Shown in pieces: positions 26,605-31,224 of a stretch of DNA of 53,985 nucleotides; the stretch's first letter is position 1; every line of letters starts with the position of its first letter. This DNA is from an uncultured Candidatus Saccharibacteria bacterium (GTDB taxonomy: Bacteria; Patescibacteriota; Minisyncoccia; Phycocordibacterales; WO2-35-19), in the NCBI GenBank assembly GCA_964483435.1, contig CAZAAO010000001.1, positions 1 to 53,985 of the forward strand. Direction: 5' to 3'. Both the position numbers and the translations under genes were made by a program. The notes beneath the pieces were generated by a model. It worked only from the letters and a program-made list of their open reading frames with translations, searched no databases and was not told the DNA's origin.

Positions 26605-27045
26605 ATGTCACTCGTCGATAACAAAAAAATACACTTTAATTATGAAGTCTTAGAGAAGCTCGAAGCAGGTATCGAGCTTTTGGGCTTTGAAGTAAAGAGT
26701 TTGAGGGCTGGAAAAGCGAATCTTGAAGGAGCGCATGTGAGCATACGAGGAAAAGAAGCATTTGTCGTAGGTATGGCAATAGAGCCGTATCAGGCAAATA
26801 ATACTCCAGCAGACTATGAAAGAGATCGCCCTAGAAAGCTCTTGTTAAATAAGGCTGAAATCAAACATTTGGAAGAAGTCGAGGGTCAAAAAGGATTGAC
26901 AATAGTGCCAATTTCGGTGTATAATAATGGTAGGAAAATCAAAGTTTCAATCGCAGTAGTACGCGGAAAGAAAAAGTTTGATAAACGTGAAAGTATCAAA
27001 AAAAGAGAAACTGATATTGATATCAGGAGAGAAATGAAAAGATAG
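26605..27045 (+). CDS. smpB: SsrA-binding protein SmpB
   Basis: NKKIHFNYEVLEKLEAGIELLGFEVKS..., 146 aa with a basic C-tail; a tmRNA gene lies downstream. Confidence 0.93.
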   Translation: MSLVDNKKIHFNYEVLEKLEAGIELLGFEVKSLRAGKANLEGAHVSIRGKEAFVVGMAIEPYQANNTPADYERDRPRKLLLNKAEIKHLEEVEGQKGLTIVPISVYNNGRKIKVSIAVVRGKKKFDKRESIKKRETDIDIRREMKR

Positions 27046-27058
27046 TTGTTCCCCTAAA

Positions 27059-27325
27059 ATGTTTTACTCTGTGTATATACTCTATAGTCATAAAGATCAA
27101 AAACTTTATGTAGGATGCACCAAAGACCTCCAAAGTAGACTTGAGAGACACAACACAGGAAGAGTAAATGCTACAAAATACAGGCGCCCTTTATCCTTAA
27201 TTCACAGCGAAGAATACGGAGACAAGACACAAGCCTTTAATAGAGAGAGATTTCTAAAAAGTTTGTGGGGTTCTCGAGAAAAGAATAAGATAAAGGAGCA
27301 GTATTTGCGGCTAAATCATTCCTGA
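27059..27325 (+). CDS. GIY-YIG (URI) domain protein
   Basis: FYSVYILYS...KLYVGCTKDLQSRLERHN...R...E, 88 aa. Confidence 0.8.
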   Translation: MFYSVYILYSHKDQKLYVGCTKDLQSRLERHNTGRVNATKYRRPLSLIHSEEYGDKTQAFNRERFLKSLWGSREKNKIKEQYLRLNHS

Positions 27326-27438
27326 TTAGCTAATCAGGAATGATCGCCCGAACATACTAAGGTGCAGTGGTGGGGCTAAAACATTTCTGCTTAGTAAAGC
27401 AGAAATGTTCGCCCGATCACTTTGCCTTAGCAAAGTGA
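27317..27438 (+). repeat. three related hairpins between the GIY-YIG gene and tmRNA
   Basis: CATTCCTGATTA GC TAATCAGGAATG + ATCGCCCGA (27317-27351). AACATTTCTGC TTAGTAAA GCAGAAATGTT + CGCCCGA (27380-27416). TCACTTTGC CTTAG CAAAGTGA (27417-27438). The first two units are roughly 75% identical. Confidence 0.6.
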
Positions 27439-27442
27439 TTTA

Positions 27443-27854
27443 GGGGATGAATTAGCATCGACAGATAAGATCTTTGAAAATGCGCATAGTAGAGCCCCAA
27501 GGACTCTTAAATCCCTTGGAAAACTCAAATGCAAAAAATACTTTTGCCAAAGCTGTTTCTCCGTACTTTACGGCCAACGACTTTGATTTCGCTTACGCAA
27601 GAGCTTAATTAAGTTCTCGCCTTCGCGACGGCTCCCTCTTGAAATCTGTTATAGAGAAGAGTTGTAATAAATTCGGATTATAGAAGAGAAAATGTCTCGC
27701 TTCCCTTCTGAAAAATAGAGACTAGGTATGTATCTGTTCCGTCTGACTTTAAGGATATGTATCAAATTCCGCCCTGAGCGGAAAAGACAGACTAAACTAT
27801 GTAGATCCATTTTCAAAACTTGTTTGCACGGGGGCTCGCTACCTCCCATCTCCA
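27443..27854 (+). ncRNA. ssrA: tmRNA (SsrA)
   Basis: 5' GGGGATGAATTAGCATCGACAG. The 3' end has T-arm GGGGG CTCGCTA CCTCC and acceptor CATCTCC plus A, pairing with GGGGATG to give G3:U70. In-frame tag ORF GCA...GCC AAC GAC TTT GAT TTC GCT TAC GCA AGA GCT TAA (27531-27608). Adjacent to smpB. CCA is not encoded. Confidence 0.9.
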
Positions 27855-27870
27855 CAAAATTAAGGAGGAA

Positions 27871-27906
27871 GAAAACACCATCTCGTTCGGGATGGTGTTT
27901 TCTTCG
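27871..27906 (+). terminator. intrinsic terminator after tmRNA
   Basis: GAAAACACCATC TCGTTCGG GATGGTGTTTTC followed by TTCG. Confidence 0.7.
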
Positions 27907-27964
27907 ACTATAATTTTGTAGGATGCCGCACACCCCTTCTTTTCTCAAGTGCGGCGCCACCATA

Positions 27965-27993
27965 TTGATTTAATCCCAAAAAGAGGTATAAAT
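27965..27993 (+). promoter_or_regulatory. sigma70-type promoter of the small-ORF operon
   Basis: TTGATT (27965-70), a 16-17 nt spacer, then TATAAAT (27987-93). GGAAGGAG and the ATG at 28014 follow. Confidence 0.5.
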
Positions 27994-28013
27994 ACTTTTG
28001 GAAGGAGTTTTTA

Positions 28014-28289
28014 ATGACTATTAAACACCCCCGCGGTGGGAAGGAAATTTTCGGCCGCCAACTTGCTCCAGGTGAGGAGCTGCAACCGGGCGACGTGTAC
28101 GATTGCTCCGATGGTACATGGAGAAACATCGGGAATATGACCCGGGTACCAGAAGAAAGCACCGCCGTATTCGTAAGACCAGGCATCGACGATCTGATGG
28201 AAGAGGCCGCCAAGCATATCGAGGAAGCAGAAGCGGACTATAACCTCGGAATAGCGATTCCTGGACTCGACTTGATCCGAAAGGGATGA
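28014..28289 (+). CDS. hypothetical protein (91 aa)
   Basis: Strong SD GGAAGGAG 6 nt before the ATG. Coherent acidic sequence. The stop overlaps the SD of the next ORF. Confidence 0.6.
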   Translation: MTIKHPRGGKEIFGRQLAPGEELQPGDVYDCSDGTWRNIGNMTRVPEESTAVFVRPGIDDLMEEAAKHIEEAEADYNLGIAIPGLDLIRKG

Positions 28290-28292
28290 TCA

Positions 28293-28487
28293 ATGGTTCC
28301 AATTCCTTGTGACTGTCCGCATCATGACGGCGGCAAATCCCATCGCGGCGATTGCTGCCAAACCTGCCCCTTTTGTGGGGAAGAACGTGTCCGTCTGGAT
28401 GATATTCAGACACACGTAAATAATTGCCCTCAAAAGATTGAGGTGGATCGCGAAAAAATTTTTAGCCGGGCTCCATACACCGACTAG
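28293..28487 (+). CDS. hypothetical Cys/His-rich small protein (64 aa), probable zinc ribbon/finger
   Basis: CDCPHH...CCQTCPFCGEERVRLDDIQTHVNNCP (C-x2-C-x11-H-x4-C). Starts 4 nt after the preceding stop (AAGGGA upstream). A terminator follows. Confidence 0.55.
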   Translation: MVPIPCDCPHHDGGKSHRGDCCQTCPFCGEERVRLDDIQTHVNNCPQKIEVDREKIFSRAPYTD

Positions 28488-28509
28488 CACCCGCCCCCCC
28501 CTATCAAAA

Positions 28510-28543
28510 GACCCGAGCAACGCTCGGGTCGATTCTTTATTTA
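28510..28543 (+). terminator. intrinsic terminator of the small-ORF operon
   Basis: GACCCGAGC AACG CTCGGGTC followed by GATTCTTTATTT. Confidence 0.7.
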
Positions 28544-28572
28544 TTGACAAAAAATTCATGAAGAGCATAATT
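28544..28572 (+). promoter_or_regulatory. near-consensus sigma70 promoter with no ORF behind it
   Basis: TTGACA (28544-49), a 16/17-nt spacer, then CATAAT/ATAATT (28566-72). Confidence 0.55.
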
Positions 28573-28574
28573 AT

Positions 28575-28945
28575 CCTTGGACGGTTGGAGCGCTCTGCCA
28601 GAAGTATAGGTATATCCACTAGCGCTCCAACCTCGCTCTCCCGAGCGGGTCTGCGGTACAGTTTTACCCGCTCGGGCATCTGTCCAACTCCCCGGGCGTT
28701 TGGGGAGTAGAACGACAAGTCCTCCTTATATGAGGACACACCGCCCGCCTCTTGCGTTAATGAGGTTTGTATGTCCCCCGTTCGGGGACGGAGTCCGGAG
28801 GTTCCCACCTCGACATCCACTTAAGTTGCTACTTGAGTTTCGATTAGAGGAGGCGGCCAGACTCCAAAAAAACTGGCTTGAATGCCATAAGGCCGCGTCC
28901 TTGGAAATTTATTTCCTGGGGAGGAGCGCGGCCTTTAAATTTTAT
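28575..28945 (+). ncRNA. candidate structured ncRNA of unknown class (about 370 nt)
   Basis: Bounded by the promoter at 28544-72 and a long GC hairpin plus T-rich tail (28889-28945). At least eight helices of 6-10 bp: 28577-84/28680-87, 28585-94/28621-30, 28640-49/28667-76, 28688-93/28702-07, 28719-24/28732-37, 28773-78/28784-89 and 28820-26/28831-37. Only implausible overlapping ORFs. I see no RNase P, SRP or tmRNA signature motifs. Confidence 0.45.
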
Positions 28946-28960
28946 ATTTCAAATATCGTT

Positions 28961-29000
28961 TTATAAAAAGCTTTGCCTGCGGGACCTTGGTCCCGCAGGC
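28961..29000 (-). terminator. intrinsic terminator after CDS 29011..29634
   Basis: GCCTGCGGGACC TT GGTCCCGCAGGC followed on the minus strand by AAAGCTTTTTATAA. Confidence 0.7.
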
Positions 29001-29010
29001 ATTTGATATG

Positions 29011-29634
29011 TTACATCCCTCCCCCATCTTTTTGCTCCGTCACAGGCTCTGGGACTTGTGCCGGCTGCTGAAGATCAGTGATCATTTGCTGAAGTTTAAG
29101 CGATACCTCGGACTCACTCCCTGCTCGCCCTTTAACTTCATGATAATCTTCCTCCGAAACCTGCACAAAGACCCTCAGGCCGATTTCTTTGTTGACGAAA
29201 ATAATGTAGCTCTTGCCGTTATGGTCGATGATGACATCCCACCCCGGTTCGTCACTTGTCTCCTCATAGTATCGAGTGGCTACAGATGCACTTGGGAAAG
29301 TGTATCTGATGAAATACGCCAGAGCCTCAGCAATTTCTTTTTCGGCCGCACAACTAGCCTTACGATCATTCTGAGCAGAATCGCCGCCCTTGTCATCCTG
29401 ATCACCTTTTGACGACTTATTAGCCGACTTAGGGGTGGCTATGCTTTGCTGGGCAGCTTGAGGAGTGTCCTTTTCTGCCCTTTGAGCATAATACGCCCTG
29501 ATTTTCTCGATTACGCCCTTATCAGTATCGGAAGATTTTTTTAAAACACGTTTTACGAGGTTTTCTACAACGATCACAGTTAGCACAATGACCGCAATTA
29601 CTAGAAAAATGAACAAACCATGCGCGATGTCCAT
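29011..29634 (-). CDS. hypothetical signal-anchored protein (207 aa)
   Basis: GGAG 8 nt upstream. N-terminal TM helix GLFIFLVIAVIVLTVIVV, a charged low-complexity linker and a C-terminal globular part. Confidence 0.6.
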   Translation of the reverse strand: MDIAHGLFIFLVIAVIVLTVIVVENLVKRVLKKSSDTDKGVIEKIRAYYAQRAEKDTPQAAQQSIATPKSANKSSKGDQDDKGGDSAQNDRKASCAAEKEIAEALAYFIRYTFPSASVATRYYEETSDEPGWDVIIDHNGKSYIIFVNKEIGLRVFVQVSEEDYHEVKGRAGSESEVSLKLQQMITDLQQPAQVPEPVTEQKDGGGM

Positions 29635-29694
29635 TGATTTTCTCCGCCACGAAATATACCAGAATGCAAATATTATGCAATCTTTGTAGATGTT

Positions 29695-31224
29695 CTACTT
29701 ATTCGCTTTTGGGCGGTAGGAGATGGCTTCGAGAATATTGTTTACAGTTATCACGGGCGAATTGTCGAGGTCAGCGATAGTCTGCGCGACTTTGATGATC
29801 TTGTGATAAGAGCGAGCAGAGAGGTCGAGAGTCTTCGCAGAACGGTTTAATATATCCTTTACTTCTTCCGATAGATCCATCATAGTCGCGATGTCTCTGG
29901 CACTCATTTCTCCATTTACACTTATATTGCGCTTTGCTTTTTCAAATCTTTCGCGTTGTTTTTTGCGCGCGTTTTCGATCCTTGCACGAGCAGGTATCGA
30001 CTCGCTCTGGTCGGGCGCTTCGGTAAGTCTTTCGTGATCGATCTTCGAAACTTCGGTCCAAATATCTATACGATCTACTATTGGTCCAGAAACTTTCCTT
30101 CTATATCTCTCGATCTGGGTAGCGCTGCAGATGCACGGCTTGCCTTTGATGCCAAAGTTGCCACATGGGCATGGGTTCATTGCAGCGACAAGCATAAACT
30201 GCGCAGGAAATTTGACTGAGCCTTTAGCACGAGAAACTGTGATAACTCTATCTTCAAGAGGCTCACGCAGAGACTCGATCGATTTGTTATCAAACTCTGG
30301 AAATTCGTCTAAGAAAAGTACACCCTTGTGCGCAAGAGTCACCTCCCCCGGTCGAGGATTGGTCCCACCTCCAACGAGAGAAACATGCGAAGAAGTGTGG
30401 TGCGGACTGCGGAATGGTCTTTCTTCTAATATTCGATCTTGGAGAGCCCCAGCCATAGAGTGGATCTCGGTCACTTCCATCATCTCTTCAAATGAAAGCG
30501 GCGGGAGTACATCGGCGAGAGCTTTGGCTAGCATCGTCTTACCGGTACCAGGTGGTCCATAGAGGCAAATATTGTGCCCACCAGCGGCTGCGATCTCGAG
30601 TGCGCGCTTGGCACCCTGCTGACCTTTGATATCTGCAAGATCGTTTTTGATCTCACGTTGTTCCTTGTATGAAATGTATTTTTCTGGGTGTATTGCGCTC
30701 TTACCTCCCAAAGTGAGGTGCTCGGTTAGCTCGCGCAAACTCTCAACTCCGTACACTTTGATCCCTTGCACAAGTGCCGCTTCTGAGGCGTTTTGCTTTG
30801 GGACAAATATTTCTTCAAATCCTTCGCTTTTGGCCTTGCGAGTAAAAGCAAGCACGCCACGCACTCGGCCGACACTCCCATCAAGCGCAAGCTCCCCTAA
30901 AAATATTTTTGATTTTGGATCAAAGGTTATCTCCCCCGCTGCGATAAGGTACGCGAGCGCGATAGCCACATCGAGTCCCGACCCTTCTTTCTTTACTTCC
31001 GCCGGCGCAAGAGAGACAACTATTTTTTGATTGAGTGATTTTGGAGAAGGAAATCCAGAGTTTTTGATCGCCGCACTTACTCTGTCTCGCGCTTCTTCCA
31101 CTGCTTTGTCGGGTAACCCGACGACCGAAAATGAATGCAGACCTCGAGAGAGGTCTACTTCAACGGAGACTATATAGGGTTTGAGAAGAGATGCCTGAGC
31201 GCTGTATACCCTCGCGTAAGACAT
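29695..31224 (-). CDS. YifB/ComM family Mg-chelatase-like AAA+ ATPase
   Basis: N-terminal Lon-protease-like domain, Walker A GPPGTGKT, VLFLDEFPEF, and the C-terminal Mg_chelatase_C helix-turn-helix. 509 aa. Confidence 0.9.
   Translation of the reverse strand: MSYARVYSAQASLLKPYIVSVEVDLSRGLHSFSVVGLPDKAVEEARDRVSAAIKNSGFPSPKSLNQKIVVSLAPAEVKKEGSGLDVAIALAYLIAAGEITFDPKSKIFLGELALDGSVGRVRGVLAFTRKAKSEGFEEIFVPKQNASEAALVQGIKVYGVESLRELTEHLTLGGKSAIHPEKYISYKEQREIKNDLADIKGQQGAKRALEIAAAGGHNICLYGPPGTGKTMLAKALADVLPPLSFEEMMEVTEIHSMAGALQDRILEERPFRSPHHTSSHVSLVGGGTNPRPGEVTLAHKGVLFLDEFPEFDNKSIESLREPLEDRVITVSRAKGSVKFPAQFMLVAAMNPCPCGNFGIKGKPCICSATQIERYRRKVSGPIVDRIDIWTEVSKIDHERLTEAPDQSESIPARARIENARKKQRERFEKAKRNISVNGEMSARDIATMMDLSEEVKDILNRSAKTLDLSARSYHKIIKVAQTIADLDNSPVITVNNILEAISYRPKANK

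What the first reader, a model, noticed from the sequence alone, without database searches (positions are those of the whole stretch)
28544..28945. Orphan promoter-to-terminator unit encoding a helix-dense RNA of about 370 nt with no ORF, next to ssrA
**Transcription signals.** Directly after the terminator of the small-ORF operon lies the best -35/-10 pair in the window: TTGACA at 28544-49, a 16/17-nt spacer, then CATAAT/ATAATT at 28566-72.

**No coding potential.** The next ~370 nt have no ORF with a credible start or RBS. The ORF-track entries 28438-28710(+), 28700-28966(+) and 28290-28820(-) overlap one another and the promoter, and do not look like proteins.

**Helices.** The region is locally GC-rich and packed with perfect or G:U-containing helices:
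- A closing helix TTGGACGG/CTGTCCAA (28577-84/28680-87) encloses two 10-bp hairpins, TTGGAGCGCT/AGCGCTCCAA and CCCGAGCGGG/CCCGCTCGGG.
- These are followed by CTCCCC/GGGGAG, GTCCTC/GAGGAC, GTCCCC/GGGGAC and CTTAAGT/ACTTGAG.
- A possible long-range pairing joins CCGCC..CCTC (28741-51) to GAGG.GGCGG (28847-56).
- The unit ends in a long terminal hairpin AAGGCCGCG...CGCGGCCTT (28889-28935) with a T-rich tail.

**Identity.** The size is in the RNase P RNA/tmRNA class. tmRNA is already accounted for at 27443-27854. I cannot find RNase P CR-I (GAGGAAAGUCC) or CR-V (ACAGAA..GGCUUA), nor the SRP GGAAGCAGC motif. A stand-alone RNA gene of unknown class inside an apparent accessory block is the strongest candidate for something undescribed in this window.
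Basis: partly seen in the sequence, partly recalled or inferred. Interest (0 to 1): 0.8.

Follow-up and report, generated by a model that had tools for sequence, protein, structure and literature searches.

The report
New structured RNA gene beside ssrA
This stretch is very likely a real gene for a folded non-coding RNA that matches no catalogued RNA family, found so far in only a handful of closely related Patescibacteria populations and of unknown function.

Summary
At 28544-28950 (+) a sigma70-type promoter (TTGACA-16-CATAAT) drives an ORF-free, GC-rich (54-60% vs 45% for the window) stretch of about 370 nt that ends in a hairpin plus U-tract.

No Rfam 15 family matches it, even at E<=10. 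ARAGORN finds nothing.

I recovered four more lineages (L094, L095, L096=L170, L097), all Patescibacteria and all with the order ssrA - p91 - p64 - RNA. The promoter hexamers, their spacing and the terminator are conserved.

On a hand-curated alignment, 97.5% of base-pair cells are canonical. 11 of 70 pairs (13 of 43 in the five-sequence core) change on both sides, against 4-5 in shuffles (0/500) and 0-3 in slid registers. G:U outnumbers A:C 21 to 3, which fits the + strand. Substitutions show no period-3 bias, and indels are 1-4 nt and lie in loops.

The conserved core is P1-P4 (28578-28708). The 3' half is modular, and 28790-28873 is swapped or lost between lineages.

It lies in a strain-variable region downstream of ssrA and was not found in 80 related genomes' syntenic loci.

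Verdict: a genuine new ncRNA family. Function is unknown; my best guess is a trans-acting protein-binding or scaffold RNA. No transcript data exist.

The parts
28510..28543 (+). Upstream hairpin GACCCGAGCAACGCTCGGGTC plus T-rich tail. It terminates the p91-p64 operon and travels with the RNA unit.
   Evidence: Terminator scan. It is nearly invariant in all five lineages. It is retained in strain variant L083, where the gene upstream of 28489 is different.
28544..28571 (+). Sigma70-type promoter: -35 TTGACA (28544-49), 16-nt spacer containing the palindrome TTCATGAA (28555-62), -10 CATAAT (28566-71).
   Evidence: 11/12 match to consensus. 31 consecutive identical positions in four lineages whose 4-fold sites differ by about 21% in the one pair measured. 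L097 keeps both hexamers and the spacing with a different spacer.
28578..28945 (+). Predicted transcript of the new ncRNA, about 368 nt. The 5' end is inferred from the -10 box and the 3' end from the terminator U-tract.
   Evidence: No transcript data are available.
28578..28708 (+). Conserved core. P1 (28578-82/28682-86) encloses P2 (28583-91/28624-32, with inner hairpin 28601-06/28611-16) and P3 (28640-50/28666-76), followed by P4 (28687-95/28700-08).
   Evidence: MFE equals the proposed structure, z = -5.5. Covariance model R1 scores 138-145 bits on the four full-length copies and 22.9 bits on the mini-variant L097. Pairs with double-sided changes: P3 5 of 11, P4 3 of 9, P2 2 of 9, P1 1 of 5.
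28709..28789 (+). 3' extension, part 1: P5 (28719-24/28732-37), the invariant C-rich stretch ACCGCCCGCC (28740-49) running into hairpin P5B (28747-51/28762-66), and P6 (28773-78/28784-89).
   Evidence: Present in four lineages and absent in L097. P5 and P6 each have 2 pairs with double-sided changes. ACCGCCCGCCTCTTGCGT is invariant.
28790..28873 (+). Variable domain V: an 84-nt closed multi-hairpin insert (GGAGUC...GACUCC).
   Evidence: Reduced to an 18-nt hairpin in L094 and a 27-nt hairpin in L170, and replaced by 86 nt of unrelated sequence in L095.
28874..28887 (+). Small hairpin P8 (UGGC-UUGAAU-GCCA).
   Evidence: Conserved in four lineages. Its pairs never vary, so it is uninformative for covariation.
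28889..28950 (+). Intrinsic terminator: stem AAGGCCGCG/CGCGGCCTT (28889-97/28927-35) with a variable apical part, then the U-rich tail TAAATTTTATATTTC.
   Evidence: Stem plus U-tract are present in all five lineages, with 2 pairs showing double-sided changes.
28014..28487 (+). Co-inherited operon p91 (28014-28289, a single Kelch-like blade plus a helix) and p64 (28293-28487, Cys-rich zinc-ribbon-like). It lies immediately upstream of the RNA in all five lineages.
   Evidence: The functional link to the RNA is inferred only.
27443..27857 (+). tmRNA (ssrA), the conserved landmark upstream of the module.
   Evidence: Rfam RF00023, 87.4 bits. It also lies upstream of the module in L095, L170 and L097.

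Best explanation
This is a stand-alone gene for a structured non-coding RNA belonging to a previously uncatalogued family.

**Shown.**
- A conserved sigma70-type promoter and a conserved intrinsic terminator bracket an ORF-free, GC-rich segment.
- Its hairpins are maintained by compensatory substitutions, with a G:U bias that fits transcription of the + strand.
- The functional unit is the 5' core of about 130 nt: P1 closing a junction with the long hairpins P2 and P3, followed by P4.
- The 3' half (P5, a C-rich single strand, P5B, P6, variable domain V, P8) is modular and can be swapped or lost.
- The gene sits in a strain-variable accessory region just downstream of ssrA. It is always preceded by two orphan small-protein genes, p91 and p64.

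**Inferred.** The RNA is made abundantly and is stable, because both ends are locked in helices. It acts in trans through its folded shape, as a protein-binding or scaffold RNA. The co-inherited p91 and zinc-ribbon-like p64 are the most obvious candidate partners. It does not act by coding or by cis-regulation of a neighbouring gene.

**Confidence by step.** That it is a real, selected, structured RNA element: about 0.8. That it is a separate trans-acting transcript: about 0.65. That it works as an RNP with p91/p64: about 0.2-0.25.
For: **Signals.** The promoter matches consensus 11/12 and is identical at 31 consecutive positions in four lineages. L097 keeps the hexamers and spacing with another spacer. 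A terminator hairpin plus U-tract is present in all five.

**Structure.**
- Fold z-scores: -6.3 (window), -5.1 (L094), -4.8 (L095), -5.5 (core).
- Curated four-sequence alignment: 70 pairs, 97.5% of cells canonical, 11 pairs changed on both sides against 5.0 +/- 1.5 in shuffles (0/500) and 0-3 in slid registers.
- Five-sequence core plus terminator: 13 of 43 pairs against 3.9 +/- 1.6 (0/500).
- 47 of 53 changed pairs stay paired, against about 20% expected under independent substitution. Stems diverge 11.4% and loops 19.2%, against 21.5% at 4-fold sites in the same genome pair.

**Strand.** 21 G:U cells against 3 A:C cells, and the promoter and U-tail are on the + strand.

**Not coding.** Substitutions per phase are 30/30/27 (p = 0.95), indels are 1-4 nt and confined to loops, and no small ORF is shared. 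The minus-strand ORF has no homologues.

**Not a known family.**

**Not a cis leader.** The downstream gene is convergent p207 in three lineages and an unrelated + strand gene with its own promoter in L170.

**Independence of the unit.** Strain variant L083 keeps the RNA but has a different gene upstream of 28489.
Against: - There is no transcript evidence of any kind.
- Only five lineages are known and they are close relatives (housekeeping proteins 98-99.7% identical between the window and L094). Several covarying pairs therefore share one evolutionary event, and the association with p91-p64 may reflect shared ancestry rather than function.
- The structural alignment was curated by hand to fit the hairpins, which inflates pair counts somewhat. 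The uncurated MAFFT alignments still gave 6-7 pairs with double-sided changes.
- P1 is weak (85% of cells paired).
- The minus strand folds thermodynamically as well as the plus strand (z = -8.3).
- Loops evolve at about the neutral rate, so little beyond the helices and a few junctions is constrained.
- Nothing ties p91/p64 to RNA binding. There is no RNA-binding domain hit, the AF2 models are poor (pLDDT 57-63), and distant p91 relatives occur without this RNA.
Confidence: 0.65

Rival explanations
1. It is a base-pairing small RNA regulator. The invariant C-rich single strand (ACCGCCCGCCUCUU, 28740-28753) or another unpaired segment pairs with G-rich or Shine-Dalgarno-like regions of target mRNAs, and the hairpins only provide stability.
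For: ACCGCCCGCCTCTTGCGT is invariant in four lineages and predicted to be largely unpaired in the short variants. The unit has the sRNA-like layout of its own promoter and terminator.
Against: The mini-variant L097 lacks this segment entirely but keeps the P1-P4 core. Complementarity of four conserved unpaired segments to 52 start regions in the window is no better than for shuffled segments (10-88% of shuffles do as well). That test has low power because it covers only 54 kb of the genome. A length of 300-370 nt with ten helices is atypical for a seed-pairing sRNA.
Confidence: 0.12
2. It is a cis-acting or DNA-level element rather than a trans-acting RNA. Candidates are an insulator or terminator array between convergent operons, a long 3' UTR of p207 read from the minus strand, or palindromes bound by a protein or used by a mobile element.
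For: Stems are mostly perfect Watson-Crick, and the minus strand folds at least as well (z = -8.3). Bidirectional terminators flank the unit. The region is a recombination hot spot, with contig breaks at 28489-28547.
Against: G:U outnumbers A:C 21 to 3, including new G:U and U:G pairs arising in L094, L170 and L097. Those would be mismatches on the minus strand or in DNA cruciforms. The + strand promoter hexamers are conserved even where the spacer differs. The unit keeps its form with a different downstream gene in L170. It is single-copy, with no repeat family in the window.
Confidence: 0.08
3. It is the RNA component (guide, template or antitoxin) of a mobile-element or defence system whose protein partner lies elsewhere or has been lost. 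Examples are a retron msr-msd, an omega or bridge RNA, a type III antitoxin, or a defence-RT template.
For: It has a conserved scaffold plus a hypervariable internal segment (V, 28790-28873). It lies in a variable island next to ssrA, a classic integration site. A phage-like module is inserted in nearby yifB in a strain variant. A related genome carries another orphan RNA (LOOT) in the equivalent region.
Against: No reverse transcriptase, TnpB/IscB, IS110-type recombinase, integrase or toxin gene lies within the syntenic block in any of the five lineages. There are no tandem repeats and no att-like direct repeats. PADLOC and PHROGs give no significant hit for the neighbours. V is itself a closed structured hairpin domain rather than a single-stranded guide, and it is simply absent in two lineages.
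Confidence: 0.06
4. It is a highly diverged copy of a known housekeeping or catalytic RNA (RNase P RNA, 6S, SRP, a second tmRNA piece, a group I/II intron fragment or a small ribozyme) that the Rfam models miss.
For: Its size range overlaps RNase P and tmRNA. Patescibacteria are known for divergent RNAs (my own background knowledge, not tested here).
Against: No Rfam hit at E<=10 on the window copy or at E<=0.1 on three homologues. ARAGORN finds nothing. The RNA is not found in the syntenic loci of 80 related genomes. It loses half its length in L097 and swaps a whole domain between close relatives, which is not the behaviour of an essential RNA.
Confidence: 0.03
5. It is protein-coding, either the 176-aa minus-strand ORF 28290-28820 that gene callers annotate (149-172 aa) or a small peptide on the + strand.
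For: Automated annotation of several metagenome contigs calls a 149-172 aa protein here.
Against: That ORF overlaps p64 antisense, has no homologue outside its own population among 5.8 billion proteins, and is disrupted by 1-, 2- and 4-nt indels in L094, L095 and L170. There is no period-3 substitution pattern (p = 0.95) and no shared small ORF.
Confidence: 0.02

Closest known systems
Orphan structured ncRNA motifs found by comparative genomics in metagenomes and accessory regions (e.g. LOOT RF03000, ROOL, GOLLD, HEARO, raiA; Weinberg et al. 2017, PMC5737381; Rfam)
   Same: It is a stand-alone, ORF-free, GC-rich, multi-helix RNA supported by covariation and of unknown function. It lies in variable or accessory DNA. 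A related Paceibacteria genome carries LOOT in the equivalent ssrA-yifB variable region.
   Different: It has no sequence or structure match to any of these families. At 150-370 nt it is much smaller than GOLLD or ROOL. Its known distribution is extremely narrow (five close lineages). It has an explicit conserved promoter and terminator.
Stable housekeeping RNAs of similar size (RNase P RNA, tmRNA, 6S RNA, SRP RNA)
   Same: The size class is similar, it has its own promoter, both termini are base-paired, and it has variable peripheral stem-loops like the expansion segments of RNase P and tmRNA.
   Different: No covariance-model match. It lacks the CR-I/CR-V P4 core, a tRNA-like domain with tag ORF, a 6S central bubble and the SRP domain IV motif. 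It is accessory and not universally present.
Island- or prophage-encoded trans-acting sRNAs, and protein-sequestering RNAs (CsrB/RsmZ type)
   Same: It is an independent transcription unit in horizontally variable DNA, with a string of hairpins that could present repeated protein-binding sites.
   Different: No repeated GGA-type loop motif. It is longer and more tightly structured than typical seed-pairing sRNAs. No target complementarity was detected.
RNA components of mobile or defence systems (retron msr-msd, TnpB/IscB omega RNA, IS110 bridge RNA, ToxI antitoxin)
   Same: A conserved scaffold with a hypervariable segment, located at an integration hot spot.
   Different: No partner enzyme gene nearby in any lineage, no tandem repeats, and the variable segment is structured and dispensable.

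Membership tests
Stand-alone structured ncRNA gene (generic criteria) | Own promoter, conserved across homologues | tested here: met
   TTGACA-16-CATAAT matches 11/12. Hexamers and spacing are conserved in five lineages, and 31 positions are identical in four.
Stand-alone structured ncRNA gene (generic criteria) | Rho-independent terminator at the 3' end, conserved | tested here: met
   A GC-rich stem plus U-tract is present in all five lineages, with 2 stem pairs showing double-sided changes.
Stand-alone structured ncRNA gene (generic criteria) | Secondary structure supported by compensatory substitutions beyond controls | tested here: met
   11 of 70 and 13 of 43 pairs changed on both sides, against 4-5 in shuffles (0/500) and 0-3 in slid registers. 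Caveats: only 4-5 related sequences and a hand-curated alignment.
Stand-alone structured ncRNA gene (generic criteria) | Absence of coding signal | tested here: met
   No period-3 bias, frame-breaking indels, no shared small ORF, and the minus-strand ORF has no homologues.
Stand-alone structured ncRNA gene (generic criteria) | A discrete transcript is detected | not testable with these tools
   No RNA-seq or metatranscriptome data are accessible here.
RNase P RNA (RF00010/RF00011 and relatives) | Covariance-model match; P4 helix formed by CR-I (AGGAAAGUCC) and CR-V (ACAGAA) | tested here: not met
   No hit at E<=10 on 28450-29050, both strands, and none on the homologues. The motifs are absent from the sequence.
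tmRNA (RF00023; one- or two-piece) | tRNA-like domain plus tag reading frame | tested here: not met
   ARAGORN finds nothing in 28400-29050. Rfam places tmRNA only at 27443-27857. There is no similarity between the two RNAs.
6S RNA / SRP RNA | Covariance-model match; a long irregular hairpin with a central bubble (6S) or the domain IV motif (SRP) | tested here: not met
   No Rfam hit. The architecture is a multi-hairpin junction, not one long helix.
Large ornate RNAs (GOLLD, ROOL, OLE, HEARO) and LOOT | Covariance-model match to the family | tested here: not met
   All are in Rfam 15 and none hit. LOOT was detected in relative L005 by the same tool, which shows the search can find it.
Type III toxin-antitoxin RNA (ToxI-like) | Tandem direct repeats of the antitoxin unit next to a toxin endoribonuclease gene | tested here: not met
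   No tandem repeats in 27800-29700. There is no PADLOC or Pfam toxin hit among the neighbours.
Retron msr-msd, omega RNA, or IS110 bridge RNA | Adjacent reverse transcriptase, TnpB/IscB, or DEDD recombinase gene | tested here: not met
   The neighbours are SmpB, GIY-YIG, p91, p64, p207, YifB and a DksA-like protein. None of those enzymes occurs in any of the five loci.
Riboswitch or cis-regulatory leader | Located in the 5' UTR of a conserved downstream gene on the same strand | tested here: not met
   The unit ends in its own terminator. The downstream gene is convergent (p207) in three lineages, and in L170 it is an unrelated gene with its own promoter.

The most novel reading that the evidence does not exclude
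The RNA core, the single-Kelch-blade protein p91 and the zinc-ribbon-like p64 together form a self-contained three-gene ribonucleoprotein module. It would be lodged specifically at the 3' flank of ssrA in episymbiotic Patescibacteria. It would be a new kind of RNA-based accessory system, for example in host or phage conflict or in modulating trans-translation. The swappable 3' domains of the RNA and the fast-evolving partner proteins would reflect an arms race.
Probability: 0.12. Interest if true: 0.7.

Novelty: new member of a known kind. Interest (0 to 1): 0.5.

Why it matters
Patescibacteria (CPR) are ultra-small, mostly uncultured episymbionts with stripped-down genomes. Their non-coding RNA repertoire is almost unexplored beyond rRNA, tRNA, tmRNA, RNase P and SRP.

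A GC-rich, promoter-to-terminator RNA gene that is kept folded by selection inside a hypervariable locus shows that these reduced genomes still invest in lineage-specific structured RNAs.

It gives a concrete, small (about 130-nt core) target for structure probing and partner identification. It also illustrates that very rare RNA classes, known from only five lineages, can be validated by covariation when close relatives are recovered through neighbouring genes.

Practically, current annotations of this locus carry a spurious 149-172 aa 'hypothetical protein' that should be replaced by an ncRNA feature.

Tried and rejected
1. **Rfam 15.** Gathering and E<=10 scans on the window, plus E<=0.1 on three homologues, found nothing but tmRNA and tRNA.
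2. **Phage DNA similarity.** blastn against phage genomes gave no match.
3. **Related genomes.** nhmmer, blastn and the covariance model R1 against 80 YifB-anchored loci of related Patescibacteria and the rest of the window found no further copies.
4. **Metagenome pattern scan.** The scan with the conserved terminator-promoter junction returned one chance match, L099, inside an unrelated gene.
5. **Viral contig scans.**
   - Two RNA core motifs gave 70 matches. All are chance, since R1 finds nothing in them.
   - The junction pattern gave 0 matches.
6. **Spurious ORF as bait.** Using the minus-strand ORF in the protein database returned only its own population.
7. **Neighbour-protein routes.**
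   - p207 and p91 have only 2-3 relatives each among 5.8 billion proteins.
   - A full HMMER search with the p91 profile hit Kelch-repeat proteins and a few small proteins. The three small proteins looked up (P0126, P0069, P0092) sit in unrelated contexts, one of them next to a 23S rRNA leader.
8. **Function of neighbours.**
   - Pfam, PHROGs, PADLOC and NCBIfam on p91, p64 and p207 gave nothing significant. p64 has only a sub-threshold zinc-ribbon match to Lar (18 bits against a cutoff of 39.6).
   - AF2 models of p64 and p91 had pLDDT 63 and 57, too poor for fold search, so that was not run.
9. **Island signatures.** No att-like repeats of the tmRNA 3' end and no tandem repeats.
10. **sRNA targets.** Complementarity to start regions was not better than for shuffles.
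11. **Model-made alignment A7.** Discarded because it included a spurious sixth match.
12. **Literature.** Searches for a described Patescibacteria or ssrA-adjacent ncRNA returned nothing relevant.
Full report
**1. What is in the sequence**

Window 28544-28950 contains, on the + strand:
- a sigma70-type promoter: TTGACA at 28544-49, a 16-nt spacer, and CATAAT at 28566-71, an 11/12 match;
- about 370 nt without a credible ORF;
- a long terminal hairpin (28889-28935) followed by TAAATTTTATATTT.

Only three sites in the whole 54-kb window match the promoter consensus at 11/12 or better. The single better one (12/12, 26896-26925) lies inside smpB.

The segment is GC-rich: 54% overall and 60% in the 5' core, against 45% for the window. 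It folds far better than dinucleotide shuffles: z = -6.3 for the whole, and z = -5.5 for the 131-nt core, whose MFE is identical to its centroid. The minus strand folds equally well thermodynamically (z = -8.3), so strand had to be decided by other evidence (section 3).

**2. Not a known RNA**

- Rfam 15 (4,227 families) at gathering thresholds reports only tmRNA (27443-27857) and two tRNAs in the window.
- A permissive scan of 28450-29050 (E<=10, both strands) gives only noise. The best is E = 0.16 to Trp_leader on the minus strand across the upstream terminator.
- ARAGORN finds nothing.
- There is no similarity to phage genomes, no tandem repeat, and the locus is single-copy in the window.

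**3. Relatives and what they show**

*Genomic setting.* Anchoring on the neighbouring yifB gene retrieved 80 loci from Patescibacteria (Parcubacteria/Paceibacterota) MAGs. None contains the RNA by nhmmer, blastn or covariance model. None contains the three adjacent small ORFs p91, p64 and p207. In the closest long contigs (L005, L006) the order yifB ... ssrA-smpB-ftsH is kept, but 4-6.5 kb of unrelated genes fill the gap. The RNA therefore lies in a variable region downstream of ssrA.

*Same population.* Exact-protein look-ups found the same population in several metagenomes at 99.8% identity or more. Contigs break at 28489-28547. Strain variants lack the GIY-YIG gene, carry a phage-like insert in yifB, or have a different gene upstream of 28489 while keeping the RNA.

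*Diverged copies.* These came from the only existing relatives of p207 and p91:
- L094 and L095;
- L096, which equals L170;
- L097.

All have the order ssrA - p91 - p64 - RNA.

*Calibration.* The window and L094 differ at 21.5% of 4-fold degenerate sites, while housekeeping proteins are 98-99.7% identical. These are therefore close relatives, but far enough apart for neutral sites to have turned over.

*Conservation of signals.*
- The promoter is identical at 31 consecutive positions in the four full-length copies. L097 keeps both hexamers and the spacing but has a different spacer.
- The terminator stem and U-tract are present in all five copies.
- Indels are 1, 2, 3 or 4 nt long and confined to loops and junctions. 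Variable columns fall evenly across the three phases (30/30/27, p = 0.95). No small ORF is shared.
- The 176-aa minus-strand ORF that gene callers annotate (as 149-172 aa products) has no homologue outside its own population.

*Structure test.* MAFFT/RNAalifold alignments already show 6-7 pairs with double-sided changes, but they misalign rewritten hairpins. I therefore segmented each copy into helices and loops, checked that the segments reproduce the sequences exactly, and counted pairs.
- Four full-length copies: 70 pairs in 10 helices, 97.5% of cells canonical. 11 pairs changed on both sides, against 5.0 +/- 1.5 in column shuffles (0/500) and 0-3 in registers slid by 1-3 nt.
- Adding the mini-variant to the core plus terminator: 13 of 43 pairs, against 3.9 +/- 1.6 (0/500). 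By helix: P3 5 of 11, P4 3 of 9, P2 2 of 9, terminator 2 of 9, P1 1 of 5.
- In pairwise comparisons, 47 of 53 changed pairs remain paired, where independent substitution would keep about 20%. Stems diverge at 11.4% and loops at 19.2%, close to the neutral rate.

*Strand.* G:U cells outnumber A:C cells 21 to 3, including wobble pairs newly arisen in single lineages. Together with the promoter and U-tail, this assigns the RNA to the + strand.

*Caveats.* There are only five related lineages, some covarying pairs share one evolutionary event, and the alignment is hand-curated.

**4. Anatomy**

*Core.*
- P1: 28578-82/28682-86. It is weak, with 85% of cells paired.
- P1 encloses P2 (28583-91/28624-32; 12 bp in the window) with an inner hairpin (28601-06/28611-16).
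- P1 also encloses P3 (28640-50/28666-76). P2 and P3 are joined by the invariant junction UCGCUCU.
- P4 (28687-95/28700-08) follows directly.

*3' half.*
- P5 (28719-24/28732-37).
- The invariant stretch ACCGCCCGCCUCUUGCGU running into hairpin P5B.
- P6 (28773-78/28784-89).
- Variable domain V (28790-28873).
- P8 and the terminator.

V is 84 nt here, 86 nt of unrelated sequence in L095, and a short hairpin of 18 or 27 nt in L094 and L170.

L097 (about 150 nt) goes from P4 straight to the terminator. The covariance model R1 aligns it across P1-P4 at 22.9 bits. P1-P4 is therefore the family-defining unit and the 3' half is modular.

A possible pseudoknot between the P4 apex (CGGGCG) and the C-rich strand (CGCCCG) is invariant. 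It can therefore be neither supported nor refuted by covariation.

**5. How it most likely works**

*Shown.* It is an independently signalled, selected, structured element on the + strand. It is not coding, and it is not a leader of a downstream gene: the downstream gene is convergent p207 in three lineages and an unrelated gene with its own promoter in L170.

*Inferred.* It is a stable, abundantly made RNA acting in trans through its fold. The most economical guess is a protein-binding or scaffold RNA. The co-inherited p91 (a single Kelch-like blade plus a helix) and the Cys-rich p64 are candidate partners.

That link is weak:
- the lineages are close relatives, so co-occurrence may be ancestry;
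- no RNA-binding domain is detected;
- the AF2 models are poor;
- distant p91-like proteins occur without the RNA.

*Rivals.*
- A seed-pairing sRNA is disfavoured, because L097 lacks the C-rich strand and no above-chance complementarity to start regions was found (low power).
- A mobile-element or defence RNA is disfavoured by the absence of any partner enzyme in five loci.
- A DNA-level or minus-strand element is disfavoured by the G:U asymmetry and the conserved + strand promoter.

**6. Comparison with what is known, and novelty**

It behaves like the many orphan structured RNAs found by comparative genomics in accessory DNA. One of these, LOOT, sits in the equivalent region of relative L005. 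However, it matches none of them, nor RNase P, tmRNA, 6S, SRP, introns or ribozymes.

I file it as a new family within the known kind 'stand-alone structured bacterial ncRNA of unknown function'.

Its known distribution is extremely narrow, and the surrounding genes p64 and p207 evolve fast (83-84% protein identity, against 98-99.7% for housekeeping proteins). That fits an accessory, possibly conflict-related, role.

Searches of the literature found no description of it.

**7. Verdict**

- The function is unknown.
- Transcript evidence and a broader homologue search are the decisive missing pieces.

Noticed in passing
L005:14538-14656 (-): An Rfam LOOT RNA (RF03000, 53.9 bits against a gathering score of 46.4) lies in the variable yifB-ssrA region of a related Paceibacteria MAG. 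So the equivalent hot spot holds a different orphan structured RNA in another lineage.
   Followed up: partly
window 30312 (inside yifB 29695-31224); L083:1-1333: Strain variant L083 has a phage-like module (DUF1508 protein, Xre-type HTH repressor, ImmA/M78 peptidase) inserted in yifB at about residue 304. yifB/comM therefore serves as an integration site in this population.
   Followed up: partly
window 27059-27325: The GIY-YIG nuclease gene between smpB and ssrA is present here but absent in L087 (same population) and in L094. It looks like a mobile, homing-type insertion.
   Followed up: partly
window 27306-27354 and 27371-27419: Two 49-nt direct repeats (80% identical), each containing a perfect 13-15 bp palindrome, lie immediately upstream of the tmRNA gene. 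A third 10-bp palindrome is at 27416-27439.
   Followed up: no
window 26896-26925: A perfect 12/12 sigma70 consensus (TTGACA-18-TATAAT) lies inside the 3' part of smpB, about 130 nt upstream of the GIY-YIG gene and about 520 nt upstream of ssrA.
   Followed up: no
window 28014-28289 (p91): The N-terminal ~55 residues of p91 match the Kelch repeat, with HMMER hits to proteins carrying 5-12 Kelch blades. p91 thus looks like a stand-alone single propeller blade plus a C-terminal helix. Small stand-alone relatives exist in unrelated genomic contexts.
   Followed up: partly
window 28293-28487 (p64) and 29011-29634 (p207): Both proteins evolve much faster than their neighbours between the window and L094 (83-84% amino-acid identity, against 98-99.7% for YifB, FtsH and SmpB). 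p207's 4-fold sites differ by only 13.7%, suggesting relaxed or diversifying selection.
   Followed up: partly
window 28555-28562: The 8-bp perfect palindrome TTCATGAA sits inside the promoter spacer of the RNA gene. It is conserved in the four full-length lineages but absent in the mini-variant L097. It could be an operator.
   Followed up: no
L086:1189-1527: One contig joins very AT-rich unrelated DNA to the RNA gene at window position 28547, replacing the -35 box. It is probably an assembly chimera. Several other contigs of the same population also break at 28489-28547.
   Followed up: partly
L173:397-1205: A distant p91-like gene (79 aa) lies directly upstream of a promoter and the leader of a 23S rRNA gene (the LSU rRNA match starts at 997).
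   Followed up: partly
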